64,000 nt of DNA, taken from a phage. The position numbers were made by a program, and so were the translations under genes. The stretch's first letter is position 1. The number at the start of each line of letters is the position of its first letter. Positions 32,088 to 57,657 of this stretch are shown here, in pieces. The stretch lies in NCBI GenBank assembly GCA_012813795.1, contig GCA_012813795.1_4087.1; one strand, 5' to 3'. The notes below the pieces were generated by a model. The model did not search any database. It saw only the letters and a list, made by a program, of their open reading frames with translations, and was not told the origin of the DNA.

Positions 32088-32090
32088 GTA

Positions 32091-33094: not shown

Positions 33095-33700
33095 TTATTG
33101 AATAATTCCCCATTTAACTAGATCTGTTCTTCGTAAGACAACGATATCCTCACCATGTTTAGTACTGATATCAATGAGTGTTTCAGCGGGGATACCGTTA
33201 TGTGCGTACAGTGTAAAAAGATACCCAACTTTAGTTGAGACTTGATGTGTAAACTCCATCAACTGTCTAACTGAAACGAATGTAGTATCTGGATCTGCAC
33301 CATTCGTAGATACCAGTGAGATGTTATGTAAACCCATCACTGCGGTATCACTCATATCCCTACGTTCAGTTGATGCAGAGAAAAAAACCAGACTACAAGA
33401 CGAATTACATTGCTTTGGGACATAAACAGTTAACTTTTTAGCAGCCACAAACAATCCCAAATCTAATCCTGCATCAAAATCTCCACCTGGTGATGTAATT
33501 GTTAAAATTTTAAATCTTGTTTCTTTCCACAACTTCTTCACTTCTTGTACAGTTTCATCATTTAGTTCACCATCAATTGACACAACATGTTCATTTAATA
33601 GAAAAACAGATGATTTTTTTGAAACTTCTGCCGCTGCCGGAAAGTTTAATGCAGCGATTAAAACAACGGTTTGTACAATCTCTTTCAAGATTCGTTTCAT
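33095..33700 (-). CDS. secreted ClpP/S49-like serine peptidase-fold protein
   Basis: 201 aa; N-terminal signal peptide (VVLIAALNFPAAA); ITSPGGDFDAGLDLGLF resembles the ClpP/crotonase-fold active-site region. Confidence 0.5.
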   Translation of the reverse strand: MKRILKEIVQTVVLIAALNFPAAAEVSKKSSVFLLNEHVVSIDGELNDETVQEVKKLWKETRFKILTITSPGGDFDAGLDLGLFVAAKKLTVYVPKQCNSSCSLVFFSASTERRDMSDTAVMGLHNISLVSTNGADPDTTFVSVRQLMEFTHQVSTKVGYLFTLYAHNGIPAETLIDISTKHGEDIVVLRRTDLVKWGIIQ

Positions 33701-36800: not shown

Positions 36801-37187
36801 ACACCTGCCCAACCGTTGATTGATTATAATATTTACATATATGATAGTAATGAATGTATAAAAGGACGTATAAAAAATCCAACAGACGTAGTTAACATAA
36901 AATATATGAATGTCTTTTTCTTTGACATAGAGAATAATCCACCAAATGCTTTATATAGAGGAAAAATGGAAGGTGGTATTCCTGTTACGTTTCAATATGA
37001 CACCCAAAATTCTAGATTAAATTCGTATACTTATATGGTACAGGGGGTAACTGATGGACCAATAACTCTAAAATACACTTCATCTGCTACTGGTGTTATT
37101 AGAACTGCACAAGTTGATGTTACTGGACCAATGACTGATGATAGTAATAAAACTGATGAGGGGGGTGATGGTGATTTACTTAAATGA
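33900..37187 (+). CDS. large Ig-like (Big_2-type) repeat protein 1
   Basis: 1095 aa; about 7 tandem ~90-aa units with the recurring pattern ...TP..(V/K)(L/I).GD.F...I.Y.P.TA.H.G.W...; distinct ~330-aa C-terminal region. Confidence 0.75.
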   Translation: MKPIAGLDQFPFVIGGLQVTAAKIEGQVFVKELYVIKQRTFDSYDLISENFKIYKDIKITGRNKDKSTLTYDDDDAEIAKSLANNTFCIKESDDFNKKYGFGIQYQLNKIKLHNGEVIFRQSSIRPSVLNGVFITPSSFEIDVGQQQVFDAIYDPQSWINKNGTWDYDKSVFDVVSFTQTSITLLAKQDAINTEIKYSPTGREINRIAVSIGSVVDNTSIIKNISITPNVINSKLSEDFTVNVVYDPIKYKFKSGKWSVSDTSVLQFVSGDGETATFKPISVGSSTITFTLDKDSTKTATASVEVSYADLKSVTISPENVTGTIGETGSISISYVPDNAQKGGSWAISDKLILKELSSTISEFDYELVGNGTTYATFVPLANYDGSMITAKFDVNYSKLENIVLTPSSVSNLVPGDTGKISIEYTPSTVETGGTWSFNPTGVIEQDLSKSTSTEMYYNVLIPGTSTATFHPTASYDGTPKTVSFEVGNSELTGITLTPTTSTVKIGDDFYIDITYEPNTALHEGTWNTSDFEKYVTLESDSTPDRAHFKAIGVIDSVNLTYSKGTISATNKCAVNYSDLKSITLSPTATYAKLGDDFYVDIAYDPDTAQHTGSWNTSDFEKYVTLESDSTPDRAHFKAIDLVDEVDLVYSNGNISDTNYCGVSRPPLISVSLSPSSEKVKVGDSFNVKITYNPNTAQHYGEWNLDEIKEYLTYDSDLSVYDVAVFDVIKRSETPIELKFTSAGKTATNTCEFEEAVLTGISLKIQENTPIYDSLYVVPYKGDIYIDVLPIPADAKLPDDIGTITDNTGLYDLTFFDFLSFNKEKSTNHRLYFDFVSSFDEYMYFIEESSKGLIFTYTLSNGMTVDSPAMVTNFPELTKVTLVPSSGKCDVNSIIKCEATLDNGMSTYYINPLSTYTSEHEDYLVIEDRTSFQPFDEFLEPIEIVGKLPTNIYVPDGNYVYFTYTLSTTPAQPLIDYNIYIYDSNECIKGRIKNPTDVVNIKYMNVFFFDIENNPPNALYRGKMEGGIPVTFQYDTQNSRLNSYTYMVQGVTDGPITLKYTSSATGVIRTAQVDVTGPMTDDSNKTDEGGDGDLLK
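35415..35825 (+). repeat. near-identical intragenic tandem duplication (period about 273 bp)
   Basis: Two copies sharing an almost identical ~60-bp core (catggaatacatcagattttgagaaatatgtaacact.gaatcagatagtacacctga), encoding the duplicated peptide SDFEKYVTLESDSTPDRAHFKAI. Confidence 0.8.
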
Positions 37188-37223
37188 TTATAAATTAATT
37201 TTAATGCTAAGGAGAAATATTTT

Positions 37224-39743
37224 ATGGCAGAATTAAAATCAATTAGATTTAACAATAATGGTGTTGTAAACAGCACCATTTATAAAACCAGTACTATAAC
37301 GGTTACATATGACCCAGTTGATTGGTATGATCAAACTGGGAAATGGGTATATGATAGTACGTATATTAAAGTGTTGTATAGGAGTGGTGAGAAACTTATT
37401 TTCAAAACACTCAAAGAAGGAAACACAAATATATCATTTTCACCAACTAATTATGATTCTTTAAAACAAACGTGTACTGTTGATATTCATACCGATACAG
37501 TTCAAAGTATCTCATTGAATCCAACTGAAAACATGTTGAAGTATAGTTCTGAATTTGAAATCGATGTCACTTATAACCCACCAATTGGCACGGATCTTCC
37601 AACATGGACATATGATAAAAATGTTTTAACATATGATGCTGAAAAAAGTACAAGGGATAAAGCTTTCTTTAAAGTAAATTCTAGTGTTTTAAGTCCAGTA
37701 TCAGGTAAGATTACATGTACGTATGGTGTAGATTTATCAGCGGAAAGTTTTTATTACGTGTCCGAAAACCCCGCATCACGTGTAAAATTGTCTCCTGATA
37801 CATCAAACGTACTACTTGGTGATACGTTCTCAGTTAATATTTTATATGATCCACTTGGGTGTGATAAAACTGGTGTATGGAGTTACGATGATACATGTCT
37901 TGAATACAACGAATCACGCTCAACTTCTGATGTTGCATATTTTAAAGCAATTAAAACACCAGAAGGAAATAATGACACGTTAAAATTAACATATAAATGT
38001 GCATCATCCGTGTCCGATTCAACAACGTGTACAATATCATATGATCCATTGCAATCAGTTAAATTGACAACAATCCCAGCTTCATTGAATCCAGATGCAA
38101 TGATAAACGTAAAAGCTGGGGATGGGTTTAGTGTTAAGGTCACATATGTCCCAGACACCGCCAGACATGATGGTGTTTTGAATTTTAACCCACTATATTT
38201 CACCTATGAAAAAGACCAATCTGCACAAGACACTTTTTTAATCACACCAATTCTACCATCTATAGACACTGATGAACCTGTGCAGCCGATATCTTTTACT
38301 TCTAACGGGATTATATCAAATATACTCAATTTCACAATAGATTATTCTGACCTTGTTTCGGTATCTTTTGACCCACCAGAAGTTAATACAACCGCTGGTT
38401 CTGTATTTGGTGTAACTGTGATTTATAATCCAAGCACAGCTAAAAATGACGGTGAATGGAACATTGCTAATGTTCTGGATTATATTAAAAAAGGAACAAC
38501 AGTCGGTGATTCAACTTCATTCCAATCTTTGAAAGCCACAGTTGATAGTGATGGAAACCCATCAAGTATAGATATGGTTTACAAAAGTGGTTATATCAGT
38601 ACACCTATTAAATGTAACATTGATTATAGTGAGTTGAAATCTATTAATGTAAAATGTGATCCGTCATATCCACTGAATACTTCTCTTGGGATAATAGCAA
38701 CATATACACCAGACACCGCAAAACATGATGGTGTATGGACATGTTCATCAGATTTAATTCCAGGTGCATCTACTCCAGATCTTGGGTCATTCCGTACAGG
38801 TAAATTAGTAAATGCAAAAAGTGTAGTTACTGTAACATCTAAATCCAATAAAGATATTGGTGCATCATGTGGATTTACCTCAACTTATTCTAAGTTAAAA
38901 GGTATAACAGTAACACCACTTGGAACAACAACAGTTAAACCTGGTGATTCATTTGGTATACAAATATCGTATAATCCAAACACTGCACAGCATCTTGGTA
39001 TGTATAATTGGGATTTTAACCCTGATTATTTTGAATATAACTATGAGTTGTCAGAGCCAAACAAAGATATACAATATTTTAATGCTTTATTACCCACACC
39101 AGAAGAAGGTTCAGTACTAACATGTCTCCCACCTGAAGGGTCTGGTGCTACATCTGGTAAATGTGTAATAACCGTTAGTTATCCTCCAATCAAATCAGTG
39201 TCTATTGAACCACCTGAATCAACTCATAAATTTGGTGATGTGTTCAACCTTATCGTGAAATATGATCCAGATACAGCAAGAAAAATGGGTACATGGGAAT
39301 ATGATAAAGATCGAATAGCATTAGTTAATCCGGTAACCGACCTTAACGATCAAGCAACATTTTATGTTATCAATAACGGTATAGGTGGAGAAACGGATAT
39401 ATCATATTCATATTATCCAGGCGTAACTGCAACACATAAGTGTACTGTAGAATATGAAAACTTGGATACCCTAAGTTTAGTTCCTCCAAGAATCAAGAAA
39501 AAACCAGGTAATACTTTCTATATAAAAATCATATACACACCAGATGGTGCATTACATGATGGTACATGGACATACAATAAAACTGTATTTGAATATACAC
39601 AGGAAAGTACTAAAGATTTGGGAGTTTTTAAAATTTCCGACACTGCTCCTGAAGGTGCATACCAATTATCATATCAACCAAAAACTGCTGATCCAGATCA
39701 AACATTCCCACCTGTAATTTTACAATGCACTATTACAAAATAA
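37224..39743 (+). CDS. large Ig-like repeat protein 2
   Basis: 839 aa; about 9 repeat units of the same type; GGAGAAA RBS. Confidence 0.75.
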   Translation: MAELKSIRFNNNGVVNSTIYKTSTITVTYDPVDWYDQTGKWVYDSTYIKVLYRSGEKLIFKTLKEGNTNISFSPTNYDSLKQTCTVDIHTDTVQSISLNPTENMLKYSSEFEIDVTYNPPIGTDLPTWTYDKNVLTYDAEKSTRDKAFFKVNSSVLSPVSGKITCTYGVDLSAESFYYVSENPASRVKLSPDTSNVLLGDTFSVNILYDPLGCDKTGVWSYDDTCLEYNESRSTSDVAYFKAIKTPEGNNDTLKLTYKCASSVSDSTTCTISYDPLQSVKLTTIPASLNPDAMINVKAGDGFSVKVTYVPDTARHDGVLNFNPLYFTYEKDQSAQDTFLITPILPSIDTDEPVQPISFTSNGIISNILNFTIDYSDLVSVSFDPPEVNTTAGSVFGVTVIYNPSTAKNDGEWNIANVLDYIKKGTTVGDSTSFQSLKATVDSDGNPSSIDMVYKSGYISTPIKCNIDYSELKSINVKCDPSYPLNTSLGIIATYTPDTAKHDGVWTCSSDLIPGASTPDLGSFRTGKLVNAKSVVTVTSKSNKDIGASCGFTSTYSKLKGITVTPLGTTTVKPGDSFGIQISYNPNTAQHLGMYNWDFNPDYFEYNYELSEPNKDIQYFNALLPTPEEGSVLTCLPPEGSGATSGKCVITVSYPPIKSVSIEPPESTHKFGDVFNLIVKYDPDTARKMGTWEYDKDRIALVNPVTDLNDQATFYVINNGIGGETDISYSYYPGVTATHKCTVEYENLDTLSLVPPRIKKKPGNTFYIKIIYTPDGALHDGTWTYNKTVFEYTQESTKDLGVFKISDTAPEGAYQLSYQPKTADPDQTFPPVILQCTITK

Positions 39744-39770
39744 TAGACTGAAATTACTTTACAAAAAAAA

Positions 39771-39792
39771 TGTGGTTGAATATTCAACCACA
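39771..39792. repeat. perfect 22-bp palindrome
   Basis: TGTGGTTGAATATTCAACCACA preceded by A8, 20 nt upstream of the RBS of 39814. Confidence 0.7.
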
Positions 39793-39813
39793 TAATAAGA
39801 AGGAAACATAATT

Positions 39814-41439
39814 ATGATAGAAGATTCAAAAAATCTTATTTCAGTTAGTTTAAACAAAAGAACTATTAGAACTTCTGTTCGTGATGTTAACACATTATAT
39901 GTTAGTTTTAATCCACCTGACTATATTAATCAGGTTGGAACATGGACATATGATGAACAGTATATTGAAATGATCACACAAGATAATTTGGTTTTTGTTT
40001 TTAAATCTATAAAAAGTGGTGTAACCACCATAACATACACACCACGTGATAATAAAGCATTATCGAAGAATTGTATAGTTAATATTGAAAAAATACCATT
40101 ATCATCAATTAGTCTTAACCCAAATTATATAACTTTATACAAAGGTCAAACTTTTGATATTGATATATCATATATCCCAGATGGAGCAGTTCATTCGGGT
40201 AATTGGAGTAATTTAAACAATGATATATTGTATATAGGTCAACAAAGTACACCTGATAAATCAAGAATGCAAGTACTAACAACTGATGCTAAGATGATAA
40301 CTTTATATTATACCAGTGGCGAAATATCAGTTCCTTTGAATTGTACTATATTGAACAACCCAGCAGATGAAATTATTTTCGATCCACCATCACCAATTAA
40401 TGTAACAGTTGGTGAGAGTTTTTTTGTAAACATAAACTATGCACCAGAAAATGCGGATAAGGTTGGATTCTGGGAATATGATGATTCAGTACTGATGTTA
40501 TTGAATGATAGTGATAAGGCATCCAGTGCACATTTTGTGGCTACCAAAAAAACCACATCAACTGGAACTGAACTTAAATTCCGTTCAGGTGATGTGTACT
40601 CAACGTTACAGTGCTTTATAACTCCTGGTGTTTTAGATTTATTAACATTAACACCTAGTTATGAAACGGTGGTTGTTGGTGACGCGTTTGACATTGGAAT
40701 AACCTATTACCCAGAAGACATAATTCACAAAGGTATATGGGAATATGATTCTACATATTTCAAAAAAATGTTCGATGACTCAAATACTGCAACATTTAGA
40801 TTAATCAAAAAATCCGACATACCATTAAAATTAAGATATATCTCTTATGGGAGAGCATTTAATAATATATGCACTACTGTTGAAAATGGTGATTTAGTTT
40901 CATTACAATTAAACCCTAATTCCGAATCAGTTGAGGTTGGTAAAAGTTTTGATATCGCAATAACATATAAACCTGATAATGCTTTACATAGTGGTATATG
41001 GGATTTCGATTCGGAATATATTAAATTGGAAAAATCAAGTACAGTGGATAAAGCAACATTTACAGTACTGAAATATAATCCAAATCCATTAACATTAACT
41101 TATAAATCAGGTAAAACAACTGCAACAAACAAATGTATTACTGTAAAAAATACACCAGTATTAAGTAGTATTAAAGTATCCCCAGAATCAACTGAAATGA
41201 AAGTTGGTGATACAGTATTATTATCAATTTCATACAACCCTAATACAGTAGAGCATATGGGAATGTGGTATTATGATAAAAAACTATTCAAATTAATAGA
41301 CACAGGTCAAACACATGACTATGGTATATTTGAATGCTTGGCGGTGTCAGACGCAAAATCACCAATAGTATTTTCAAGTGCTGGAAATGCTGATGCTTGT
41401 ATTGTCACAACTAAAGAAAAAACAACTAAAGAGGATTAA
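39814..41439 (+). CDS. large Ig-like repeat protein 3
   Basis: 541 aa; about 6 repeat units; AAGGAAA RBS. Confidence 0.75.
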   Translation: MIEDSKNLISVSLNKRTIRTSVRDVNTLYVSFNPPDYINQVGTWTYDEQYIEMITQDNLVFVFKSIKSGVTTITYTPRDNKALSKNCIVNIEKIPLSSISLNPNYITLYKGQTFDIDISYIPDGAVHSGNWSNLNNDILYIGQQSTPDKSRMQVLTTDAKMITLYYTSGEISVPLNCTILNNPADEIIFDPPSPINVTVGESFFVNINYAPENADKVGFWEYDDSVLMLLNDSDKASSAHFVATKKTTSTGTELKFRSGDVYSTLQCFITPGVLDLLTLTPSYETVVVGDAFDIGITYYPEDIIHKGIWEYDSTYFKKMFDDSNTATFRLIKKSDIPLKLRYISYGRAFNNICTTVENGDLVSLQLNPNSESVEVGKSFDIAITYKPDNALHSGIWDFDSEYIKLEKSSTVDKATFTVLKYNPNPLTLTYKSGKTTATNKCITVKNTPVLSSIKVSPESTEMKVGDTVLLSISYNPNTVEHMGMWYYDKKLFKLIDTGQTHDYGIFECLAVSDAKSPIVFSSAGNADACIVTTKEKTTKED

Positions 41440-41442
41440 ATC

Positions 41443-43644
41443 ATGTCAAAAGATGATCAATTAACATCTGTTACCCTACAACCAGAATCAGTAACACTGA
41501 ATGTGGGTGACAATAAAATTGTATATGCAGTTTATACACCAAATACATATACACCAAAAAAAGGTAAATGGATATATGATGCAAATATTGTATCTGTTAC
41601 ACATGAAGAAGATACCTTTATGCAATTCATTGCAGTAAAACCTTCTGAAACTGAAATAACGTACATTCCATTGGGTGCACCTGAATTTGCTTGTAGTACA
41701 GTTGTTACAATTAAAGGTACTGATCCAACAGATGATTTGGTATTAGATCCAGAAAACGAAACAGTTCAGGTCAATACTGATTTTTATATTAATGTAAAAT
41801 ATAATCAAGCAGATGGTATCCCAACATGGAAATATGACCAATCTGTAGTTAAATATATGCCTGATAGTACACCTAGTAAAGCACACTTTAAAGCACTAAA
41901 AACTACTGCGAATAGTATTCCTTTGGTTTGTGAATGCGGAAATAACACTAAAATGAATTTATGTACAGTTGTTGATACTGCGGCCACCATATCATTGAAT
42001 CCACAACACGTAACTAAACAAGTTGGTGACGACTATTATGTTGATATTTTTTACTCCAAAAAAGTTCAAGATCCAGTAGTTACATGGGACGGTACTGATG
42101 AGTTTTTAGAATTACAACCTGATAGCAACCCATACCGTGCTCATTTCAAAGTTGTAAAATATTCTGAAGATCTTGTTTCAAGAAGAATTACAACTTCAAT
42201 GGGTAAAAGTGCCACACATACCTGTGTTACACGTTATAGTGATTTGAAAAACATTTTCATTGATTATCCAAGTAAAAATTTAATGGTTGGTGACCAATTT
42301 AAATTAACAGCGTTGTATTATCCAGATACGGCAAATCATGATGCTAAATGGTCGTTTGATTCTGGTAATTTTATTATTGATAGTAGTAGAACCACGCCAA
42401 ATGAAGCATACTTCACTGCACTAAAAGCAACATCAGGGGCAGACTTCAAGAGTATTACATTGAGTAGTGGTACATTTAAAGATGAATGTAAATGTATAAT
42501 TAATGAATCCTCATACTCAGAAGAAGATAATGTGCCAGTACTAAATCAACGTGCAAGTGGGGATTTGGATAGTGTTGTAGTAACTCCATTAACAATTGCA
42601 TCCAGAGTTGGGCAGCCTAAAATTATATCTGCGGTTTTCGAACCAAGAGATTATAGTGATAAATCAGGAACTTGGATGTATGATCCACAAACACTTGACG
42701 TATTGTCTGAACAAGATAACTATATAATCATAAAACCGAACCATATTAGTAATACATTTGTTGAATTTGTTTCCAATGATAAACCTTCATTTAGTTCTAA
42801 TTGTTCCATCGTGGTTTCAAGTGATGGTTTTGTAATTTCACCAACACACCAACATGTAAAATTAACTGAAGATTTTTATATTGATGTTTTATTCGATGAA
42901 TCGAAAGGTAAACCAGTATGGAGATACGATACTAATTACATAAAAATGTTGGATGACAGTACTGATACCAAACCACATTTTCAAGCATTTAATATGACAA
43001 GTGAGGATGAATTAATAACCAAATTAGTATGTTCGTATGACAATATGGAACAAATATTCACTTGTTATATTGATAAAAATACTAACCCAATATCATGTCA
43101 CCCATCAAAATCATTACAATTTATGTCATCTGATTTTTGGATAAATGTTGCATATGATAAAGAAAATACAAAATCTTCTTTATTGGATGTCGATTTTATT
43201 ACATGGGATGATGATAATGAATACGTTGAACTACAACCTGACAGTACCTCTTTCGTAGCCCATTTCAAAGTTGTGAAATATAAAAATGGTCAAATTACAA
43301 GAACAGCAACCTCCAAATCTGGACATACCGCCACATTTGCCATATCATTATATTCACCATATACTTACATCGATATGACACCACAATTTGAAACTTATTC
43401 TATGAATAGTATTATAGTTTTGAGCATAAATTACGGAGGTAGTCCATATACACCTGAATACAAAAAATTCAATGACATGTTAAATTATGATTCTAGATTT
43501 CTGCAATTGGAGGATGATAGTACTGGCGATAAACTATACTTCACTCCTTTATCTCCAACAGGAAATAACTTTACAACTGTTATATTTTCCGACGATAACA
43601 CACGTTTGATGTCTGCAAAAAGTTGCATTACAATTAAAAAATAA
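41443..43644 (+). CDS. large Ig-like repeat protein 4
   Basis: 733 aa; about 8 repeat units; starts 3 nt after the stop of protein 3. Confidence 0.75.
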   Translation: MSKDDQLTSVTLQPESVTLNVGDNKIVYAVYTPNTYTPKKGKWIYDANIVSVTHEEDTFMQFIAVKPSETEITYIPLGAPEFACSTVVTIKGTDPTDDLVLDPENETVQVNTDFYINVKYNQADGIPTWKYDQSVVKYMPDSTPSKAHFKALKTTANSIPLVCECGNNTKMNLCTVVDTAATISLNPQHVTKQVGDDYYVDIFYSKKVQDPVVTWDGTDEFLELQPDSNPYRAHFKVVKYSEDLVSRRITTSMGKSATHTCVTRYSDLKNIFIDYPSKNLMVGDQFKLTALYYPDTANHDAKWSFDSGNFIIDSSRTTPNEAYFTALKATSGADFKSITLSSGTFKDECKCIINESSYSEEDNVPVLNQRASGDLDSVVVTPLTIASRVGQPKIISAVFEPRDYSDKSGTWMYDPQTLDVLSEQDNYIIIKPNHISNTFVEFVSNDKPSFSSNCSIVVSSDGFVISPTHQHVKLTEDFYIDVLFDESKGKPVWRYDTNYIKMLDDSTDTKPHFQAFNMTSEDELITKLVCSYDNMEQIFTCYIDKNTNPISCHPSKSLQFMSSDFWINVAYDKENTKSSLLDVDFITWDDDNEYVELQPDSTSFVAHFKVVKYKNGQITRTATSKSGHTATFAISLYSPYTYIDMTPQFETYSMNSIIVLSINYGGSPYTPEYKKFNDMLNYDSRFLQLEDDSTGDKLYFTPLSPTGNNFTTVIFSDDNTRLMSAKSCITIKK

Positions 43645-43664
43645 TTATTATATTAAATAATTTA

Positions 43665-43684
43665 AAGGAGCCATAAGGCTCCTT
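43665..43684 (+). terminator. intrinsic terminator closing the plus-strand cassette
   Basis: Stem AAGGAGCC/GGCTCCTT with 4-nt loop followed by TTTCTTTT; sits between convergent genes. Confidence 0.55.
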
Positions 43685-43689
43685 TTCTT

Positions 43690-43992
43690 TTATAGTTCAA
43701 TATTACCAGATAACACACTGTAATCTTTATTCATAAGTTCACAAACATATGATACAGTTGAAACATCTTTGTAATAAATTGTTAACCCAAAACGACCACG
43801 GATACGTTCTTCTTTTTCTTGATACATGAATGTTCGTACAACGTAGTACTTATTATTCTTTGGTTCATAACGTGCTTCGTACCCTTTAACTTTGTAAGCA
43901 CTAGTAGAAGTACAAATAATCAATGACACAATAACCCACACGATTATAAAGAATGCCATTAGTCCAAGAAAAACAAAAGCTTGAATCATCAT
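43690..43992 (-). CDS. membrane-anchored hypothetical protein
   Basis: 100 aa; N-terminal TM (FVFLGLMAFFIIVWVIVSLII). Confidence 0.5.
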   Translation of the reverse strand: MMIQAFVFLGLMAFFIIVWVIVSLIICTSTSAYKVKGYEARYEPKNNKYYVVRTFMYQEKEERIRGRFGLTIYYKDVSTVSYVCELMNKDYSVLSGNIEL

Positions 43993-44468
43993 TTTAATCC
44001 CATGTCAAATATACAGTTAACTTCAATCCCAGCATCTTCCAGTACTTTAATAGCTTCTAGTGGAGTGCGAGGATACGATTTTTCGTAAATTACACGAGAA
44101 ATACCACTACCAGCGATTAACTTAGAACAAGTATAGCACGGTTGGAGTGTGGTGTAAAGTGTTGCACCCTGACGTTCTTGTGGTGAACTATATAGTAATG
44201 CATTCATTTCCGCATGGATCTCATGAATGTTGCTCCACTCGTGATGTAAGTGTTTTGCATCTTCATCAATCCAATTTTGAAATTGACCATTGTTTACGAG
44301 ATGTTTATTAACATCACAACAGTTAGGTTGCTTTGATGGTGTACCGTTATATCCAGTACTCAATACTCGGTTATTCTTTACAATAACACAACCTACTTTC
44401 TGGGAAAGACACTTACTTTCCTCAGCAACGACACTGGCTATCTTCAACCACGTTGTATGTTTCATCAT
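43989..44468 (-). CDS. cd: dCMP deaminase
   Basis: 159 aa; N-terminus WLKIASVVAEESKC parallels T4 Cd; zinc motifs HAEMNAL and PCYTCSK. Confidence 0.85.
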   Translation of the reverse strand: MMKHTTWLKIASVVAEESKCLSQKVGCVIVKNNRVLSTGYNGTPSKQPNCCDVNKHLVNNGQFQNWIDEDAKHLHHEWSNIHEIHAEMNALLYSSPQERQGATLYTTLQPCYTCSKLIAGSGISRVIYEKSYPRTPLEAIKVLEDAGIEVNCIFDMGLK

Positions 44469-44943
44469 ATGTCCCTAAATTGGTTAATAGTTCTTTACAG
44501 ATCTGATGCGTACGTAAAATACGCATATAGTCTACTATATCTTTCTGGGTAATGTCAAATGGTTTTGAGCTATAAACATTCCAGCAACGAACGATTTCCA
44601 GAATGAAATCCACTTCCTTATTCATAATCTTATCAACTGCCACGATAACATCTTTTTCGTTTTGTTCTAATGTACGACCAGTATCTGAAAAAATCCCACC
44701 TAATGTGAACATCGCCCCACTATACAACCCAATAAAAATATCAGATGGTTTGTACATATTATACATAGTAAGTGCATAAATTTTCATGAAGATATTACGG
44801 TGAAAGTGTTTGTATGTTTTTTCTTTAGCTTCGTCTGATACACGGTCAGCTTCCGAAATACATTGTCGCACAAGTTCCAACGTATTGTTTACGTTCTTTA
44901 GCCAAATATCAGTATCTTCTTGTGATAATTGATTATAGTTCAT
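44422..44943 (-). CDS. hypothetical protein
   Basis: 173-aa track ORF; 3' end overlaps the cd start by 47 nt in another frame. Confidence 0.5.
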   Translation of the reverse strand: MNYNQLSQEDTDIWLKNVNNTLELVRQCISEADRVSDEAKEKTYKHFHRNIFMKIYALTMYNMYKPSDIFIGLYSGAMFTLGGIFSDTGRTLEQNEKDVIVAVDKIMNKEVDFILEIVRCWNVYSSKPFDITQKDIVDYMRILRTHQICKELLTNLGTYDETYNVVEDSQCRC

Positions 44944-44944
44944 A

Positions 44945-45807: not shown

Positions 45808-45855
45808 ATAATTTACCTATGCGAAAAGGGAGTACAATGACTCCCATTTATTTAA

Positions 45856-46302: not shown

Positions 46303-46306
46303 TGTA

Positions 46307-46600
46307 TTATTCCTTATCTTCTGTGCTGACAGCTTTTTTCTCGTTGAATGAACCGTGTTCGGCTCGCAAATTTGCAGCATATTGCACTGCATCAATTGGT
46401 TTAATATTGTTCTTCATAAGAACTTCTTGCATCAATTCAAGAATTTCAGCCATACCAACCAGTAGGTCTTCTGATTCTTTAATGTCTTTTAGTGCTAACG
46501 CTTGAGTACTGATCTGCTCTAGTGCAGTACTGATGAATTCCGAATCATCAAGAATTTCAACTTCTTCAGTGCTAGAGTTTCGTACAAGTTTCTTTGACAT
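46307..46600 (-). CDS. hypothetical protein
   Basis: 97-aa track ORF, acidic. Confidence 0.5.
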   Translation of the reverse strand: MSKKLVRNSSTEEVEILDDSEFISTALEQISTQALALKDIKESEDLLVGMAEILELMQEVLMKNNIKPIDAVQYAANLRAEHGSFNEKKAVSTEDKE

Positions 46601-46664
46601 TTTAACTCCTTAGAAAATGCCCCACATAGTGAGGCATAATATATTTTAAGTTTTTAGTACTGAA

Positions 46665-47360
46665 TTATACCCACTCTTCCACGCCACCGCGACGTTTAAC
46701 TAGGTATTGACCTTTTTCATTACGTGGACCAAGGATAATACCATCGATAAATCCAAGTTCACCATACTCAAGTGCTTCATCTGCACTCAACCACAAATCG
46801 CGGTCCGCATCTTCTAGTAGTTTTTCATGAGAAACACCTACAGCTTCAGCGATTTCTTTCGTCAGCAATGTGTTCAATGCATCAGAGTGTTTTAGTGCAA
46901 TTTTCTGATCAGTGATCAGACCTTGTGTACCAGAACTTACTTGGTGACACATAAAGTACGAGCGTTTACCACCAAGACGATAACCTTTAGTACCAACTAC
47001 TGATTGTGTGTAGCAACCCATTGATGCTGCATAACCCATCACTACTGTGCGGATTGGTGATACACAAGATTTAGCAATATCAGAAATACCCAAACCTGCA
47101 TGAACACTACCACCCGGCGAGGAAATATAAAGAGTAATTGGTTCAGAACCTTGAGAATCCAACCACACCAATTGTTGCTTGATGATATGTGCCATTTGGT
47201 CGTTGAAATCAGTATCAAGGAAAATGATACGGTCTTGCATCATACGAGATGCTAGATCATAAGTACGTTCGTTGCCATTAACTTTTTCAACTACATATGG
47301 AATTGAAATGTTAGTTGTTTCACCATTCGCATAACCACCAAACATAAATTGTTGAGTCAT
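46665..47360 (-). CDS. clpP: ATP-dependent Clp protease proteolytic subunit ClpP
   Basis: 231 aa; collinear with ClpP: RIIFL, ITLYISSPGGSV, catalytic-Ser context AASMG, His context FMCHQ. Confidence 0.85.
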   Translation of the reverse strand: MTQQFMFGGYANGETTNISIPYVVEKVNGNERTYDLASRMMQDRIIFLDTDFNDQMAHIIKQQLVWLDSQGSEPITLYISSPGGSVHAGLGISDIAKSCVSPIRTVVMGYAASMGCYTQSVVGTKGYRLGGKRSYFMCHQVSSGTQGLITDQKIALKHSDALNTLLTKEIAEAVGVSHEKLLEDADRDLWLSADEALEYGELGFIDGIILGPRNEKGQYLVKRRGGVEEWV

Positions 47361-47420
47361 TGTATATTTTCCTCTATTGTTTCATTGATGTGAGTATTAT
47401 ATCACAGTGTTCTTATTTGT

Positions 47421-47804
47421 CTACAATTTTCTTGTAAAATCTAGTAAACCGTAAATTGTTTCTTTGTTGTACAGAGTTGGGTCTATCTTCAGTAACCTAA
47501 CCATACCTGTATCATACACAGAAGTGTTGGTAATGTCAAACAAAGAATGTGTATAAAATCGGTCAGTACTGACATAAATGAAGAATTCGTTCGATTTATC
47601 TAAATCTTCAAAGAAAACTGCATCATAGTATTCAGCATTGCCATCAATATACACTTCAACTGAATCATCATCAAGCCAGTAGTGAGAGATTTCAGTACTG
47701 TTCTGTTGTAACTTTGTTTCACCTCTCGTGTGGTGTAAGTTTGCATTTAACACGTACTTGATTTCGTTATTATATACGATTGTGTACACAGTAATAAGTT
47801 TCAT
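47421..47804 (-). CDS. hypothetical protein
   Basis: 127-aa track ORF. Confidence 0.5.
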   Translation of the reverse strand: MKLITVYTIVYNNEIKYVLNANLHHTRGETKLQQNSTEISHYWLDDDSVEVYIDGNAEYYDAVFFEDLDKSNEFFIYVSTDRFYTHSLFDITNTSVYDTGMVRLLKIDPTLYNKETIYGLLDFTRKL

Positions 47805-48199: not shown

Positions 48200-48208
48200 A
48201 GTAATCCC

Positions 48209-49000
48209 TTAGATTTCGAATACCAATTTAGGATTGTAATCGAAATTCTCACAAGCTCCACTATAAGATTCGTAACCTCTTGGATTACAAATGATACGTG
48301 TCTTACCGATGTGGTAATCAAAGCTACTATGAACATGACCATGAATCCAAACATCAGCACCCAAATCTTCAATGTACTGATCCATGTCTGAACAGTAACA
48401 ACCATTCAGTGAATCGTTTTTATATTTTGGTGAAACACTTTGAAAACTCGGTGCGTGATGGGTAATCACGATGACCTTGAAATCATTATCCTGCATTAAG
48501 CGTACTGTGTCAACTGAATTTTTGATAAATTGTTTATCTTTGTAATGCATGAACTCAGTATCTTCTGGTGTCAGTTTCTTACGCCAAGGCTCGGATGTTG
48601 TTCCATGACGGATGTGTTTGTAATCGTTCATCTTCTGACGAGCATCAAACTTCGTCATGGAATTACCTTTGTCAAAGTCTGTCCACAGAGTACTACCAAC
48701 GAGCAAAACACCATCCAGCCATACAAATTTGTTTTGCAAAAAGATGAAATTAGGAAACTCATCTTGCATATCGGACAGTACTTGATGCGTTTTGTAAATG
48801 TTCGAACCGTAGTACTCGTGATTACCAGGAACCAGTACTACATTCTTGAACTGCTTACACAGTGATTCGATACCAGTACGATAACGACTACGTTTAACTT
48901 CATCGAAGTCCCCAGCAATGATCAGTACTGTGTCACTGTAATCACCACTATGGAGGTAATCAGTGCCACCGTGTACATCAGATGTTACGACAAATTTCAT
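48209..49000 (-). CDS. calcineurin-like metallophosphoesterase
   Basis: Motifs SDVHG, GDF, GNHE, HGHVH; start set to the ATG (MKFVVTSDVHG) with GGAGG RBS. Confidence 0.8.
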   Translation of the reverse strand: MKFVVTSDVHGGTDYLHSGDYSDTVLIIAGDFDEVKRSRYRTGIESLCKQFKNVVLVPGNHEYYGSNIYKTHQVLSDMQDEFPNFIFLQNKFVWLDGVLLVGSTLWTDFDKGNSMTKFDARQKMNDYKHIRHGTTSEPWRKKLTPEDTEFMHYKDKQFIKNSVDTVRLMQDNDFKVIVITHHAPSFQSVSPKYKNDSLNGCYCSDMDQYIEDLGADVWIHGHVHSSFDYHIGKTRIICNPRGYESYSGACENFDYNPKLVFEI

Positions 49001-49019
49001 AATTACCTCCAATAAATGT

Positions 49020-50438
49020 TTAGCCAAGTGATTCAATAATACTGTTTGAGAAGACCTCAACTGCACTATCACGAATTTCTAAGATACGAGTATAATCGTC
49101 ACAAGTGTTTTTGTCAAATCTAAATTCAATAAACACTGGTAAAAATAGTGATGGCTCACCAGTACGCTTGTCGAATACAATGTCATTACACTCAACTGTA
49201 ACCACTTTACCAATAAGTTCTTGCATTCTTTCCCAAATGGTTTTAAATGTCCATTCAGCATCTTTTTCGCGGATTCCTGTTCCTACGCTTACTTTTAGTG
49301 TACCACAAGCACTTTCCAGTTGTAAAGAACCAAGCATACCTTTACGCTTACCTTCACCTTCATTGAAACCAACAATACGCAAGTCCAGTTGCATTTTCAA
49401 TTTCATTTTCAACTGCTTAGGAGAAGTATGTGATTTCCAGATACCATCTTCACATTTCAGTACTGAACCTTCTTCACCTGAACTCATGAGTTCAGAGTTG
49501 TAAGCAAAGGCTTCTTTGAGATCCTTCACCTTACGATATCCAACCATACGCACGAATTCACTACCTAATGCATTGATTGCACCTTCAAGAATCTCGCGAC
49601 GTTCCTTACGTTTTACATCCCAGATACCATCACAATATGCATCGTATGGCACTACATCCCAGAGAACGAATACTGTACGCATTGCTTCGTTTTGGGTGAT
49701 AGTATCTTTACCTGCTTTCTGAATGATGCCGTTACCAGTTGTACGTGGAAGAATAGTTTCCCCATCAGTATCCAGTACTAAACCCTCGCCCATAAAGACT
49801 ACACCACTACTGAAACGTTCATCTGTACTTTGGATATGATGAGCAAGGCCAGCCATTTCAGCATCACGACAACCGAGGAAGTCGTAAATCTTACCATTAC
49901 GGGAAGTGGATGTTAATGATGCATTGATAACAACGTGGTTCAAGTACTGACCATCCATCTTAACTTCAGCAACGGCATAACCATAATCTTTGAAGTTGAT
50001 GTTCTTAGCAGTTTTCTTGTCAATCAATGAACAACGCATATAAGGTTCATCTTTAATGAAGCCTTTACCGAATACATCATTACAGTTCTTTTCCTGAATA
50101 CCACAATCAAGGTTCTTCGTGAGCATTTTACGGAGAACTTCCTGGTCATCTTCAGGAACAGCACCCAGTACTGAAGCAATGAAATCACGCCCTGTATTAC
50201 CCGTCACACCACGCTTATAGATGCATTCTAGCTTATCAATAGCTTCATCTAACGTCATATGTTGATACACGTCAGCAGCGTCTGGTAGCTTCTTATAGCC
50301 ACTTACGATAGTAGGGTCTAGCGTATATTTCAGTACTTTTTTGAGTGTTTCATTGTTTTTGTTTTCTTCAAGGATTGCTTTCTTACCAAGTGTACTTGAA
50401 GTCTTTTTGATTTGTTCCAGAATTGCTAAAATGCTCAT
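49020..50438 (-). CDS. 30: ATP-dependent DNA ligase
   Basis: 472 aa; adenylation motif I KxDG in AEVKMDGQY; size comparable to T4 gp30. Confidence 0.85.
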   Translation of the reverse strand: MSILAILEQIKKTSSTLGKKAILEENKNNETLKKVLKYTLDPTIVSGYKKLPDAADVYQHMTLDEAIDKLECIYKRGVTGNTGRDFIASVLGAVPEDDQEVLRKMLTKNLDCGIQEKNCNDVFGKGFIKDEPYMRCSLIDKKTAKNINFKDYGYAVAEVKMDGQYLNHVVINASLTSTSRNGKIYDFLGCRDAEMAGLAHHIQSTDERFSSGVVFMGEGLVLDTDGETILPRTTGNGIIQKAGKDTITQNEAMRTVFVLWDVVPYDAYCDGIWDVKRKERREILEGAINALGSEFVRMVGYRKVKDLKEAFAYNSELMSSGEEGSVLKCEDGIWKSHTSPKQLKMKLKMQLDLRIVGFNEGEGKRKGMLGSLQLESACGTLKVSVGTGIREKDAEWTFKTIWERMQELIGKVVTVECNDIVFDKRTGEPSLFLPVFIEFRFDKNTCDDYTRILEIRDSAVEVFSNSIIESLG

Positions 50439-50447
50439 TATATTCCC

Positions 50448-51647
50448 TTATAGATAATAGGTTCCATAAAAAATAGGACAGTCAGTGCTAATATGAACCA
50501 TAGGTTTTTTATTAGATTCTGATGTATTATTACTGTATCGTTTGGTTGGTGGATAGAAAGGTGAATTATAACCACGCCATGTATTGAAAGATGTATGTTT
50601 ATCGATATCAACATCCATTGACATTACACCATTCGCATCAACTTCTACTGGGTATCCGCAGTATTTTTCAAAATCACCCTTGTACGCTATAGAATAATCA
50701 TGGCGATAATATCCATAGGAATTTCTGCTGTTGTTATCTGAAATACCAAAGAATACACGATATTTTTGACCATTCTGTTCAGTCATGAATAATACGTTTT
50801 CATTGAAACGACCATTAACAAGAACGTCTTTAGTGATTTCAGTGTATTTTACTTTCATATCAGTACTTTTAAATGATTTAGTACTGATCAGTACTGGTCT
50901 ATTGCATTCACCTAATGCGTTCTCAGTTCGCATTCGGTACGTATTGAAATACGCATTTGCTTTAACAATTTCAGCTTCCATTGTTGTTTTAACGTTATGG
51001 AGTGCTCTGGGTGTTAATTCGTATCGGTCAAGGCTTGCACATACACCATATGTACCATCAGCGATACAATACACCATATGATAGAAAGAACTTTTGTTAG
51101 GTAAAGAGAATTCTTTAGTTTTCTTCAAACAAAGAGTATGAACGCGACCACAATAGTAGTACTCTTTTTTGTTATAAAGGAATCCATCACCAACTTTCAA
51201 CTCACCAACAACGCATTTACGTTCTTCAGCTTTCTCTTGCTTCTCTTGCATCTTAGCAAATGTTTTTGTATTACCATTAATGAGTTCAAGATTATTATTA
51301 AAGAACATAGCATCTTGGAATACACCATTAACGATATCATTGTGTGTGATTAAGTCCAGCATATTGTTTGCAGTGATATTGAACTCAAATCCTTCTGGGT
51401 GACGGCAAACGAAATAAGTATCTCGACCACTGTGAATCAATTTCTGAACAATAGCGAAACCTTTTTTCGGTTCATTGTCGAGTGTAAGTGACGGCATATT
51501 ATTGGTTCTTGCCCAGTACTCAACACGTTCTTTCTTATTTTCAAATGCTTTAGTGTGAGTTTTAGTTGCGTCGATAATAAATCCGTCAACCTGATCTCCA
51601 CTAACAAAACGTCTTGCGACGAAAATCTTTTCAGGAAAATTCATCAA
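50448..51647 (-). CDS. hypothetical protein
   Basis: 399-aa track ORF. Confidence 0.55.
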   Translation of the reverse strand: MMNFPEKIFVARRFVSGDQVDGFIIDATKTHTKAFENKKERVEYWARTNNMPSLTLDNEPKKGFAIVQKLIHSGRDTYFVCRHPEGFEFNITANNMLDLITHNDIVNGVFQDAMFFNNNLELINGNTKTFAKMQEKQEKAEERKCVVGELKVGDGFLYNKKEYYYCGRVHTLCLKKTKEFSLPNKSSFYHMVYCIADGTYGVCASLDRYELTPRALHNVKTTMEAEIVKANAYFNTYRMRTENALGECNRPVLISTKSFKSTDMKVKYTEITKDVLVNGRFNENVLFMTEQNGQKYRVFFGISDNNSRNSYGYYRHDYSIAYKGDFEKYCGYPVEVDANGVMSMDVDIDKHTSFNTWRGYNSPFYPPTKRYSNNTSESNKKPMVHISTDCPIFYGTYYL

Positions 51648-52063
51648 ATAGTCCTCATTGTACTCATAGCTTTTAGTGTTTCGTACATATGACCGTATTT
51701 GGAAAATAGCTGTAAATCAGACATTGGGTCGTTAGTACGCATCAGTGCCATGTCATCAATCATTTCTTCAGTGCATAGTACTGCTACACTAGTGAGGGTA
51801 TCGTTCAAACCTGGTTCATTGAATTTAGCAAATGGAACCTTGCCCTGTTTGGATAGATTCTCGTAATGAGTGGTTAATTTATCTTGGTTGCCAGCATTGA
51901 GAATTACAATAGTTTCGTGCTCATTATACCATTCATCGATTAGAGTACTGAATACTGTACCTTCATATTCTTTGACGAGTTTAATACCAGCATGAAATGC
52001 CTGAACGCCAGCCTGAACACCCTGACAGTACATGTTTGTTAAGCAATATAGTTTCACTTCCAT
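51644..52063 (-). CDS. hypothetical protein
   Basis: 139-aa track ORF. Confidence 0.5.
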   Translation of the reverse strand: MEVKLYCLTNMYCQGVQAGVQAFHAGIKLVKEYEGTVFSTLIDEWYNEHETIVILNAGNQDKLTTHYENLSKQGKVPFAKFNEPGLNDTLTSVAVLCTEEMIDDMALMRTNDPMSDLQLFSKYGHMYETLKAMSTMRTI

Positions 52064-52281
52064 ACCTCTTGTTTTTCTACATATCCTTTACCATCACAAT
52101 CTGGACATGCATAATAGCGACGAAATTCTTCATCGGGAACTTGTTGTGATCCGTTACATTTAGGACAAATGCGACGAACACCAGAAATAATACGTTCATG
52201 ATGCTCAGCTTGTTTAGCTGAATCAAAAATGCGACCATCTTCAGTTTGATATTTTTCAACCTGAACATAAATTACTTTCAT
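52054..52281 (-). CDS. small Zn-ribbon protein
   Basis: 75 aa; CPKC...CPDC pairs. Confidence 0.5.
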   Translation of the reverse strand: MKVIYVQVEKYQTEDGRIFDSAKQAEHHERIISGVRRICPKCNGSQQVPDEEFRRYYACPDCDGKGYVEKQEVWK

Positions 52282-52290
52282 TTTATATCC

Positions 52291-52569: not shown

Positions 52570-52574
52570 AATAA

Positions 52575-57351: not shown

Positions 57352-57353
57352 GT

Positions 57354-57614: not shown

Positions 57615-57637
57615 TATATCACCTAAATTAAAAGAAA

Positions 57638-57657
57638 AGGGATCAGTACTGATCCCT
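57638..57657 (-). terminator. intrinsic terminator (minus strand) after pseT
   Basis: Perfect palindrome AGGGATCAGTACTGATCCCT (with CAGTACTG at its centre), followed on the minus strand by TTTTCTTTT. Confidence 0.5.

What the first reader, a model, noticed from the sequence alone, without database searches (positions are those of the whole stretch)
46665..47360. Full-length cytoplasmic ClpP encoded among nucleotide-metabolism genes
The protein is collinear with bacterial ClpP including the catalytic Ser and His contexts. It is not the T4-type prohead protease and sits away from structural genes, so it may partner with host Clp ATPases to degrade host or phage proteins.
Basis: partly seen in the sequence, partly recalled or inferred. 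Interest (0 to 1): 0.4.

Follow-up and report, generated by a model that had tools for sequence, protein, structure and literature searches.

The report
Jumbo-phage ClpP with its own ClpA
A giant E. coli phage carries a real, full-length ClpP protease gene that is not its capsid protease; the gene is already annotated in public records, and the same phage genome encodes a matching ClpA-type unfolding motor, so it probably does not depend on the host's motors.

Summary
Window 46665..47360 (minus strand) is a 231-aa ORF, 100% identical to A4_455 of Escherichia phage A4 (Asteriusvirus, a Rak2-like jumbo phage). It matches Pfam CLP_protease end to end. Ser113, His139 and Asp188 are invariant in 41 relatives. 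The AlphaFold model overlays solved cellular ClpPs (TM 0.92-0.96). It is not the capsid protease: a T4 gp21-type Peptidase_S77 gene sits between portal and scaffold about 125 kb away in A4.

The "partners with host Clp ATPases" idea is probably incomplete. The same genomes encode a 761-aa ClpA-like unfoldase outside the window, whose best PDB match is E. coli ClpA. It keeps a ClpP-docking loop (LGL where E. coli has IGL). The two genes occur in matching record counts per host genus (72 vs 73 phage records). They share one conserved sigma-70 extended -10 promoter type.

Clade-specific features are a constrained, ordered 21-aa C-terminal tail and two changed docking-pocket positions (Phe82 to Ser, Leu114 to Gly). 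The gene was already annotated and mentioned in reviews, and no experiments were found. Substrates and role remain unknown. Interest is low to moderate.

The parts
46665..47360 (-). clpP coding sequence (231 aa plus stop). Residues 1-19 are a variable propeptide-like leader. Residues 20-210 are the ClpP core with Ser113/His139/Asp188. Residues 211-231 are a clade-specific C-terminal tail, GPRNEKGQYLVKRRGGVEEWV.
   Evidence: ORF. Pfam CLP_protease 7.7e-42. PDB sequence hits. Triad and pocket mapping. AlphaFold2 model and Foldseek. dN/dS against Sharanji: 0.09 overall, 0.04 for the tail, 0.36 for residues 1-19.
47396..47423 (-). Sigma-70-type promoter with extended -10 (TAGACA, 16 nt, TG-n-TATAAT), directly upstream of clpP.
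   Evidence: Consensus scan, 11 of 12 matches with TG. Conserved in Sharanji and RaK2 where the flanks diverge. The class GACA-N12-15-TGnTAnAAT occurs 6 times in the window, all on the minus strand, against 0.59 expected; 0 of 100 shuffles reach 6. The same architecture lies upstream of the clpA-like gene.
47370..47375 (-). Ribosome-binding site AGAGGA, 9 nt before the ATG.
   Evidence: Read from the sequence; conserved in Sharanji.
46611..46637 (-). 9-bp hairpin followed by UUUUCU, just after the clpP stop codon. It looks like a terminator or attenuator.
   Evidence: RNA fold of the intergenic stretch: -16.3 kcal/mol, z = -3.19, 0 of 200 shuffles as stable. The pattern scan missed it because the T-run is short.
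46307..46600 (-). Conserved 97-aa ORF always found immediately downstream of clpP. Function unknown; listed as a linked neighbour, not a shown component.
   Evidence: Present in Sharanji, RaK2, CBB, Munch and XaC1 at 35-57% identity. It abuts or overlaps the clpP stop in Munch and XaC1. phrog_16159, unknown function. AlphaFold2 gives a three-helix bundle (pLDDT 80) with no significant PDB fold match, and it is not ClpS-like.

Best explanation
The gene encodes the catalytic subunit of a phage-owned ClpAP-type protease.

Shown:
- It is a divergent but complete ClpP with the Ser-His-Asp triad, the N-terminal axial-loop motif and the handle/head fold, under strong purifying selection.
- It has its own conserved sigma-70-type promoter.
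- It is separate from the T4-type capsid protease.
- The same genome encodes a ClpA-like double-ring AAA+ unfoldase. Its Walker motifs, pore loops and a hydrophobic-Gly-hydrophobic docking loop are intact.
- The ClpA-like gene is co-inherited with clpP across the Rak2-like jumbo phages and is driven by the same promoter type.

Inferred:
- ClpP forms a gated tetradecamer after removing an N-terminal propeptide of about 19 residues.
- The phage ClpA hexamer docks on it through its LGL loops, unfolds selected proteins and feeds them in.
- Both genes are expressed by host RNA polymerase before late genes.
- The clade-specific ordered C-terminal tail and the two changed pocket residues tune partner choice towards the phage ClpA and away from host ClpX/ClpA.

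Substrates (host proteins, phage early proteins or misfolded proteins in a long, protein-heavy infection) are unknown.
For: ClpP identity:
- Pfam, PDB sequence and fold matches.
- Triad invariant in 41 of 41 sequences.
- Axial-loop residues P, V, E, E-R, D, S-R invariant.
- dN/dS 0.09.

Not the capsid protease:
- Peptidase_S77 gene A4_8 lies next to portal and scaffold.
- NCBIfam ClpP-related head-maturation model scores 52 bits against a cutoff of 120.

Phage ClpA:
- Pfam AAA + AAA_lid_9 + AAA_2 + ClpB_D2-small.
- Best PDB hit is E. coli ClpA at 602 bits in one collinear stretch, against ClpC 518 and ClpB 513.
- Docking tripeptide: LGL in A4, IGM in Sharanji, IGV in RaK2, LGM in CBB, IGF in Atu_ph07 and PA5oct, against IGL in E. 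coli. Walker A/B, KYR and GYVG pore loops and GARP are invariant.

Co-inheritance:
- 72 ClpP records against 73 ClpA records, with near-identical per-genus counts.
- Identities fall in parallel for the two proteins.

Shared regulation:
- TAGACA-16-TGnTATAAT lies upstream of both genes and is conserved across genera.
- The promoter class is enriched about 10-fold in the window.

Interface changes:
- Phe82 position is aromatic in 11 of 12 tail-less ClpPs and non-aromatic in 27 of 29 tail-clade members.
- Leu114 position is Leu in 11 of 12 tail-less ClpPs, and Gly in 23 and Thr in 5 of 29 tail-clade members.
- Both positions belong to the published ADEP/IGF pocket list.
- Atu_ph07, with a canonical IGF loop, keeps a canonical pocket.
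- The tail is ordered in the model (pLDDT 91-98) and has dN/dS 0.04.
Against: - No physical or functional data exist for any phage ClpP or ClpA.
- The two genes are about 90 kb apart, not in an operon. clpA sits antisense inside the structural module, which led others to propose an assembly or translocase role for it.
- The docking tripeptide drifts, and in Munch it is MNM without glycine. This could mean relaxed constraint rather than co-evolution.
- The pocket/loop co-variation rests on a few lineages that share ancestry.
- ClpP peptides were detected weakly in CBB and PA5oct virion preparations.
- The score is below NCBIfam's ClpP equivalog cutoff (156.6 against 308.6).
Confidence: 0.6

Rival explanations
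1. One reading: the phage ClpP works mainly with host ClpX and/or ClpA (or forms mixed rings with host ClpP). This would redirect the host degradation machinery towards host or phage proteins.
For: The axial-loop motif that talks to AAA+ partners is conserved with E. coli. Most pocket positions are conservative: Tyr62 is retained, and Ile90, Met92, Phe112 and Leu189 are similar. The clpA-like gene is far away and was proposed by others to act in assembly. Iyer et al. suggest that phage ClpP targets the host.
Against: A phage ClpA with a docking loop is co-inherited and shares the promoter type. Two pocket residues that contact IGF/IGL loops are changed non-conservatively throughout the clade (Phe82 to Ser/Asn, Leu114 to Gly). 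An ordered C-terminal tail has been added near that surface. Identity to E. coli ClpP is only 37%, so this is not a recent host capture.
Confidence: 0.2
2. It is a head-maturation or virion-associated protease, as several GenBank and RefSeq records label it.
For: The best PHROG match is phrog_94, 'head maturation protease' (1.2e-44). One peptide was seen in CBB virions, and there is an ESI-MS/MS flag in PA5oct.
Against: A dedicated T4 gp21-type Peptidase_S77 gene sits in the portal-scaffold-capsid module. The ClpP gene lies in a replication/nucleotide block with a sigma-70-type promoter. It is full length with axial loops and handle, like cellular ClpPs; all top 50 fold hits are cellular ClpPs. 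The NCBIfam head-maturation model is far below cutoff (52 against 120). The PA5oct virion mass spectrometry also flagged DNA ligase, so carry-over is likely.
Confidence: 0.05
3. The phage ClpP acts without an unfoldase, or not as a protease at all. One version is a self-activated peptidase whose own C-terminal tail (ending in Trp-Val) occupies the docking pocket. Another is a decoy that titrates host ClpX/ClpA and so blocks host proteolysis.
For: The tail is ordered, has a fixed length of 21 residues, is strongly constrained and ends in a conserved aromatic-hydrophobic pair. It co-occurs with a pocket enlarged by Phe82 to Ser/Asn and Leu114 to Gly.
Against: The invariant triad and low dN/dS across the catalytic core argue for real peptidase activity. 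Strict co-inheritance with a docking-loop-bearing ClpA argues for a motor partner. Tail contacts could not be inspected.
Confidence: 0.1

Closest known systems
E. coli ClpAP (ClpP, MEROPS S14, with the class-I AAA+ unfoldase ClpA)
   Same: ClpP: same fold, the Ser-His-Asp triad in the same motifs, the N-terminal axial-loop motif and a propeptide-like leader.

Partner: two AAA+ rings, KYR and GYVG pore loops, no ClpB-type middle domain, and a hydrophobic-Gly-hydrophobic docking loop at the IGL position.
   Different: - Only 37% (ClpP) and 42% (ClpA) identical to the E. coli proteins.
- Below NCBIfam's ClpP equivalog cutoff.
- Extra ordered 21-aa C-terminal tail and a 3-residue insert.
- Pocket positions Phe82 and Leu114 replaced by Ser and Gly.
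- Docking tripeptide LGL/IGM/IGV/LGM/MNM instead of IGL.
- Divergent N-domain in the ClpA-like protein.
- The genes are about 90 kb apart, and no ClpS was examined.
ClpP genes already annotated in Rak2-like and other jumbo phages (RaK2_00489, CBB_104, PBECO4, 121Q, GAP32, Atu_ph07 gp676, PA5oct gp272)
   Same: The window protein is 100% identical to A4_455 and 64-92% identical to the enterobacterial Rak2-like ClpPs. It has the same synteny and the same tail.
   Different: Nothing material. This is the same gene family, and it is known only from annotation. Published comments treat ClpP and ClpA separately.
ClpP-fold phage head-maturation proteases (PHROG 94, NCBIfam NF045542)
   Same: Shared ClpP/crotonase fold and a serine nucleophile. 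This is why automated pipelines give the 'head maturation protease' label.
   Different: - Scores far below the family cutoff (52 against 120).
- Not next to portal, scaffold or capsid genes.
- Full cellular-type N-terminal gate and handle.
- The phage already has a T4 gp21-type protease.
Human mitochondrial CLPP (from memory, not tested here)
   Same: A ClpP with a C-terminal extension of about 28 residues near the ATPase-docking face, reported to modulate ClpX binding.
   Different: The human extension is not homologous to the phage tail and is largely disordered in crystals. The phage tail is predicted to be ordered.

Membership tests
ClpP (Pfam PF00574, MEROPS S14) | Full-length match to the family profile above the curated cutoff | tested here: met
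   143.7 bits against a cutoff of 20.2; residues 29-209 on profile positions 2-179 of 182
ClpP (Pfam PF00574, MEROPS S14) | Ser-His-Asp catalytic triad in the GxAASMG, HQ and RD contexts | tested here: met
   Ser113, His139 and Asp188 align with E. coli Ser97, His122 and Asp171 (mature numbering). Invariant in 41 of 41 sequences
ClpP (Pfam PF00574, MEROPS S14) | ClpP subunit fold, including N-terminal gate hairpin, head and handle | tested here: met
   AlphaFold2 pLDDT 89.6. Foldseek TM (target) 0.92-0.96 and rmsd 1.2-1.9 A over about 194 columns. All top 50 hits are cellular ClpPs
ClpP (Pfam PF00574, MEROPS S14) | Hydrophobic pocket for IGF/IGL loops of AAA+ partners | tested here: inconclusive
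   Most positions are conservative. Phe82 to Ser98 and Leu114 to Gly131 are clade-wide non-conservative changes. Pocket list from bioRxiv 10.1101/2023.03.01.530711
ClpP (Pfam PF00574, MEROPS S14) | Tetradecamer assembly and ATPase-dependent protein degradation | not testable with these tools
   Needs biochemistry or multimer modelling
Bacterial ClpP equivalog (NCBIfam TIGR00493) | Score above the equivalog cutoff | tested here: not met
   156.6 bits against a cutoff of 308.6. It is a divergent phage clade, not a host-type orthologue
T4 gp21-type prohead protease (Pfam PF03420, Peptidase_S77) | Match to Peptidase_S77 and a position within the head module | tested here: not met
   No S77 hit for the focal ORF. 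S77 is matched instead by A4_8 (2.5e-21), which lies between portal and scaffold
ClpP-related head maturation protease (NCBIfam NF045542) | Score above cutoff and adjacency to portal, scaffold and capsid genes | tested here: not met
   52.4 bits against a cutoff of 120. Neighbours are ligase, phosphoesterase and dCMP deaminase
ClpA-type ClpP-docking unfoldase (the proposed partner, A4_579, outside the window) | Two AAA+ rings with intact Walker motifs and pore loops, and no ClpB middle domain | tested here: met
   Pfam AAA + AAA_lid_9 + AAA_2 + D2-small. One collinear alignment to E. coli ClpA, residues 17-741 against 20-734. Motifs invariant
ClpA-type ClpP-docking unfoldase (the proposed partner, A4_579, outside the window) | (I/L/V)-G-(F/L) ClpP-docking loop in D2 | tested here: met
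   LGL in A4 aligned to IGL of E. coli ClpA. Variants: IGM, IGV, LGM, IGF. Munch has MNM, the one exception
ClpA-type ClpP-docking unfoldase (the proposed partner, A4_579, outside the window) | Physical docking on the phage ClpP | not testable with these tools
   Supported only indirectly, by co-occurrence and shared promoter type

The most novel reading that the evidence does not exclude
Rak2-like jumbo phages carry a private ClpAP protease that is insulated from the host's Clp network. The ClpP docking pocket is remodelled (Phe82 to Ser/Asn, Leu114 to Gly). An ordered 21-residue C-terminal tail ending in Trp-Val guards or completes that pocket. The phage ClpA loop (LGL/IGM/IGV/LGM) has co-evolved with it. 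The phage can then degrade chosen host or early phage proteins without competing with, or being regulated by, host ClpX, ClpA or ClpS.
Probability: 0.3. Interest if true: 0.55.

Novelty: already known. Interest (0 to 1): 0.3.

Why it matters
Phages are well known to exploit host ClpXP, ClpAP and Lon, but virus-encoded complete AAA+ proteases have not been studied experimentally.

If the pair really works as a phage-owned ClpAP, it would be a tractable example of a virus bringing its own regulated protein-degradation machine. Possible roles are host takeover, counter-defence or proteostasis during a long, protein-heavy infection. The tail and pocket changes would also offer a natural experiment in how ClpP chooses its partner.

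There is a practical point too. Several GenBank and RefSeq records label this gene 'head maturation protease', which is almost certainly wrong.

Tried and rejected
- **Head-maturation protease.** Rejected. A separate S77 protease sits in the head module, the NCBIfam head-maturation score is sub-threshold, and the fold is the cellular type.
- **Recent capture of host clpP.** Rejected. Identity to E. coli ClpP is only 37%. The nearest cellular relatives are at 48% or less and are not enterobacterial, and there is a deep phage-only clade.
- **Downstream 97-aa ORF as a ClpS-like adaptor.** Not supported. It is a three-helix bundle with no significant PDB match by sequence profile or fold. The 'phosphoribosyl-ATP pyrophosphatase' label in one relative corresponds to a non-significant fold hit (E 1.8).
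- **PF25145 hit in some relatives as a tail domain.** Rejected. It is NfeD1b_N, an overlapping ClpP-fold family.
- **Tyr60 to Thr as a pocket change.** Dropped. Ordinary bacterial relatives mostly have Ser there.
- **First promoter pattern search.** It returned 0 hits because my spacer was wrong. Corrected.
- **PA5oct supplements for expression timing or virion data.** Not held.
- **Literature searches for 'phage-encoded ClpP' and similar phrases.** They found nothing.

Full report
**Source and observation.** The window is a piece of an Asteriusvirus, a Rak2-like jumbo coliphage. Positions 45000-49000 are 99.3% identical to Escherichia phage A4 (ON286972.1, 355 kb). The window aligns to A4 over 18406-34247 and 44025-64000. 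The flagged interval is exactly one ORF, 46665..47360 on the minus strand, of 231 aa. It is 100% identical to A4_455.

**Is it a ClpP?** Yes.
- Pfam CLP_protease matches end to end (7.7e-42).
- The 60 best PDB sequence hits are all cellular ClpPs.
- An AlphaFold2 model built on 41 homologues has mean pLDDT 89.6. It overlays solved ClpPs at TM 0.92-0.96 and rmsd 1.2-1.9 A, and all top 50 hits are cellular ClpPs.
- I aligned it with E. coli ClpP, whose sequence I verified against PDB 3mt6 and the K-12 genome. The triad is Ser113, His139 and Asp188, in the GYAASMG, MCHQV and DRDLWLSA contexts.
- The triad is invariant in all 41 sequences compared.
- The N-terminal axial-loop residues (Pro, Val, Glu, Glu-Arg, Asp, Ser-Arg) are also invariant. 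There is no signal peptide.
- Against the 90%-identical Sharanji gene, dN/dS is 0.09 overall and 0.36 for the first 19 residues, as expected of a propeptide.
- The protein is divergent. It scores 156.6 bits on NCBIfam's ClpP equivalog model against a cutoff of 308.6, and it is 37% identical to E. coli ClpP.
- A search of 5.8 billion proteins shows a distinct clade of about 75 clusters at 49% identity or more. They are 211-259 aa long, many on contigs of 100-370 kb. Ordinary 187-204-aa bacterial ClpPs follow at 48% or less. This is an old phage lineage, not a recent host capture.

**Is it the capsid protease?** No, although several public records call it 'head maturation protease', a label that follows the PHROG 94 match.
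- Phage A4 has a separate gene, A4_8, that matches Pfam Peptidase_S77, the T4 gp21 family (2.5e-21). It lies between the portal and scaffold genes, about 125 kb from clpP.
- Sharanji has the same arrangement. The literature reports gp21-type proteases in CBB, RaK2 and PA5oct.
- NCBIfam's ClpP-related head-maturation model scores only 52 bits against a cutoff of 120.
- Weak detection of ClpP in virion preparations is best read as carry-over. CBB gave one peptide. PA5oct carries a mass-spectrometry flag, but its DNA ligase is flagged too.

**Context.** All genes here are on the minus strand.
- The order is DNA ligase (49020..50438), metallophosphoesterase (48209..49072), two small ORFs, clpP, five small ORFs, then dCMP deaminase (43989..44468).
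- Polynucleotide kinase/phosphatase and RNA ligase lie further along.
- The ligase, phosphoesterase, ClpP, dCMP deaminase order is conserved in RaK2, CBB, Munch and XaC1. PA5oct keeps ligase and ClpP together.
- 'Away from structural genes' holds for the head module only. ORF 44422..44943 belongs to a 'virion structural protein' PHROG family.

**The partner.** While locating the capsid protease I found that Sharanji and A4 encode a ClpA-like protein: gp377, and A4_579 of 761 aa. It lies outside the window, about 90 kb from clpP.
- It has the class-I Hsp100 layout: AAA, AAA_lid_9, AAA_2 and D2-small.
- Its best PDB match is E. coli ClpA itself, at 602 bits with residues 17-741 aligned to 20-734 in one stretch. 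ClpC scores 518 and ClpB 513.
- Both Walker A/B pairs, the KYR and GYVG pore loops and the GARP motif are invariant.
- Where E. coli ClpA has the IGL loop that plugs into ClpP, A4 has LGL.
- Relatives have IGM (Sharanji), IGV (RaK2), LGM (CBB), IGF (Atu_ph07, PA5oct) and, as the one exception, MNM (Munch).

**Co-inheritance.**
- By tblastn against 50,697 phage records, ClpP at E 1e-50 or better is found in 72 records and the ClpA-like protein at E 1e-179 or better in 73.
- Per-genus counts are near-identical: Escherichia 33/33, Klebsiella 10/11, Salmonella 8/8, Erwinia 8/8, Yersinia 4/4, and Pectobacterium, Cronobacter, Xanthomonas and Serratia 2/2 each, Vibrio 1/1. I compared counts and the listed examples, not the two full record lists.
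- Identities fall in parallel (ClpP/ClpA): about 90/85% in Asteriusvirus, 71/74% in RaK2, 66/60% in CBB, 64/68% in Munch, 40/40% in Atu_ph07 and 35/41% in PA5oct.

**Regulation.**
- clpP has its own promoter-like site at 47423..47396, TAGACA-16 nt-TATAAT with an extended -10 TG. An AGAGGA ribosome-binding site follows.
- One such hit means little by itself: the scan found 24 sites against 27 expected.
- However, the site is conserved in Sharanji and RaK2 where the flanking sequence has diverged.
- The class GACA-N12-15-TGnTAnAAT occurs six times in the window, all on the coding strand, against 0.59 expected. None of 100 shuffles reached six.
- The clpA-like gene of A4 has the same architecture (TAGACA...TGTGATATAAT). 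It is conserved in Sharanji, CBB, Munch and RaK2.
- This holds even though clpA sits antisense between two late structural genes.
- I infer that host sigma-70 RNA polymerase transcribes both genes before late genes. That timing is not shown.
- A stable hairpin plus U-run follows the clpP stop codon (z = -3.2).

**Clade-specific features of the ClpP.**
- Enterobacterial Rak2-like ClpPs and their metagenomic relatives share a fixed-length 21-residue C-terminal tail, G.RNE.GQ..V.RR.G...W(V/I). Ordinary ClpPs, Atu_ph07 and PA5oct lack it.
- The tail is predicted to be ordered (pLDDT 91-98, two short strands). It is the most constrained part of the gene, with dN/dS 0.04.
- Two positions of the published ADEP/IGF-loop pocket (bioRxiv 10.1101/2023.03.01.530711) differ systematically:
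  - Phe82 is aromatic in 11 of 12 tail-less relatives and non-aromatic in 27 of 29 tail-clade members (Ser98 here).
  - Leu114 is Leu in 11 of 12 tail-less relatives, and Gly in 23 and Thr in 5 of 29 tail-clade members (Gly131 here).
- Atu_ph07, with a canonical IGF loop, keeps a canonical pocket.
- This is suggestive of a co-evolved, possibly host-insulated interface. It rests on few independent lineages, and I could not inspect the tail's contacts.

**What is known.**
- The gene has been annotated as ClpP since RaK2 and is listed for CBB, GAP32, PBECO4, 121Q and others.
- Iyer et al. 2021 (PMC7824862) mention ClpP as a patchily distributed jumbo-phage peptidase possibly aimed at the host. 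Separately, they mention ClpA/ClpX as possible translocases or assembly chaperones.
- The Atu_ph07 paper (PMC6102473) lists seven Clp-like genes and notes that ClpA is conserved in Rak2-like phages.
- I found no experimental study of a phage ClpP and no explicit treatment of the two genes as a pair. The library searched is incomplete.

**Verdict.** The feature itself is already known from annotation. The pairing evidence, the shared promoter and the tail/pocket signature are modest additions that make a testable hypothesis. The substrates and biological role remain unknown.

Noticed in passing
window 32091..32693 (-): A second compartmentalised-protease subunit: an HslV-family peptidase (phrog_1040, 1.6e-21). 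It starts MTCII..., so Thr would be N-terminal after Met removal. The only PDB sequence hits are HslV, and they are weak (E 0.16). I did not look for an HslU-like partner.
   Followed up: partly
window 33095..33700 (-): A 201-aa protein annotated in A4 as 'ClpP/crotonase-like domain protein' (phrog_26024, 'protease', 4.2e-60), with an N-terminal signal-peptide-like hydrophobic segment. It has no Pfam or PDB sequence match. It may be a secreted or periplasmic protease.
   Followed up: partly
window about 34250..44025 (+ strand ORFs 33900..37187, 37224..39743, 39814..41439, 41443..43644): A 10-kb block that replaces a different segment of phage A4. It has no megablast match in 50,697 phage records beyond its first 260 bases. 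It encodes four large proteins built of weak Ig-like (HYDIN/ASH/Cep192-type) repeats. It looks like a hypervariable surface or decoration cassette.
   Followed up: partly
window 46307..46600 (-): A 97-aa ORF is always immediately downstream of clpP in the clade and abuts or overlaps the clpP stop in Munch and XaC1. It is predicted to be a three-helix bundle with no significant structural match. Function unknown.
   Followed up: yes
window 6762, 28344, 47396, 52834, 55129, 63740 (all minus strand): A promoter class, GACA-N12-15-TGnTAnAAT (sigma-70 with extended -10), enriched about 10-fold over shuffles and found only on the coding strand. These are probably the phage's host-RNA-polymerase-dependent early or middle promoters.
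   Followed up: partly
window 52054..52281 (-) and 51644..52063 (-): A 75-aa DnaJ-type CXXCXGXG zinc-finger mini-protein and a weak PTH2-like (peptidyl-tRNA hydrolase) ORF lie about 5 kb from clpP. In Atu_ph07 and PA5oct a DnaJ gene sits directly upstream of clpA. In Atu_ph07 a PTH2 gene lies four genes from clpP. This hints at a dispersed proteostasis gene set.
   Followed up: no
L006 2453..2500 (RaK2_00489): The annotated RaK2 ClpP start is probably 16 codons too far upstream. The conserved promoter lies inside the annotated coding sequence, and the conserved ATG aligns with the window's start.
   Followed up: partly
Escherichia phage CMSTMSU MH494197.1 52672..53363: The ClpP match comes in two pieces and the record annotates two ClpP fragments. 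This is a frameshift or a sequencing error in one relative.
   Followed up: no
public records hit (for example NC_041878.1, NC_042013.1, PQ330092.1): [quoted passage not shown] The last label appears to be a pipeline artefact of the phrog_94 match.
   Followed up: yes
phage collection hits: Many short records named 'Listeria phage LM 4-11-1', 'Bacteriophage sp.' or 'Staphylococcus phage SA 1306 Kay' carry ClpP, ClpC or ClpB at about 40% identity. They look like bacterial contigs in the phage collection and inflate raw counts of 'phage ClpP'.
   Followed up: no
window 44422..44943 (-): The ORF just upstream of the dCMP deaminase gene belongs to phrog_19307, 'virion structural protein'. Its CBB homologue is annotated as a virion structural protein. 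So a structural gene sits inside this otherwise replication/nucleotide block.
   Followed up: no
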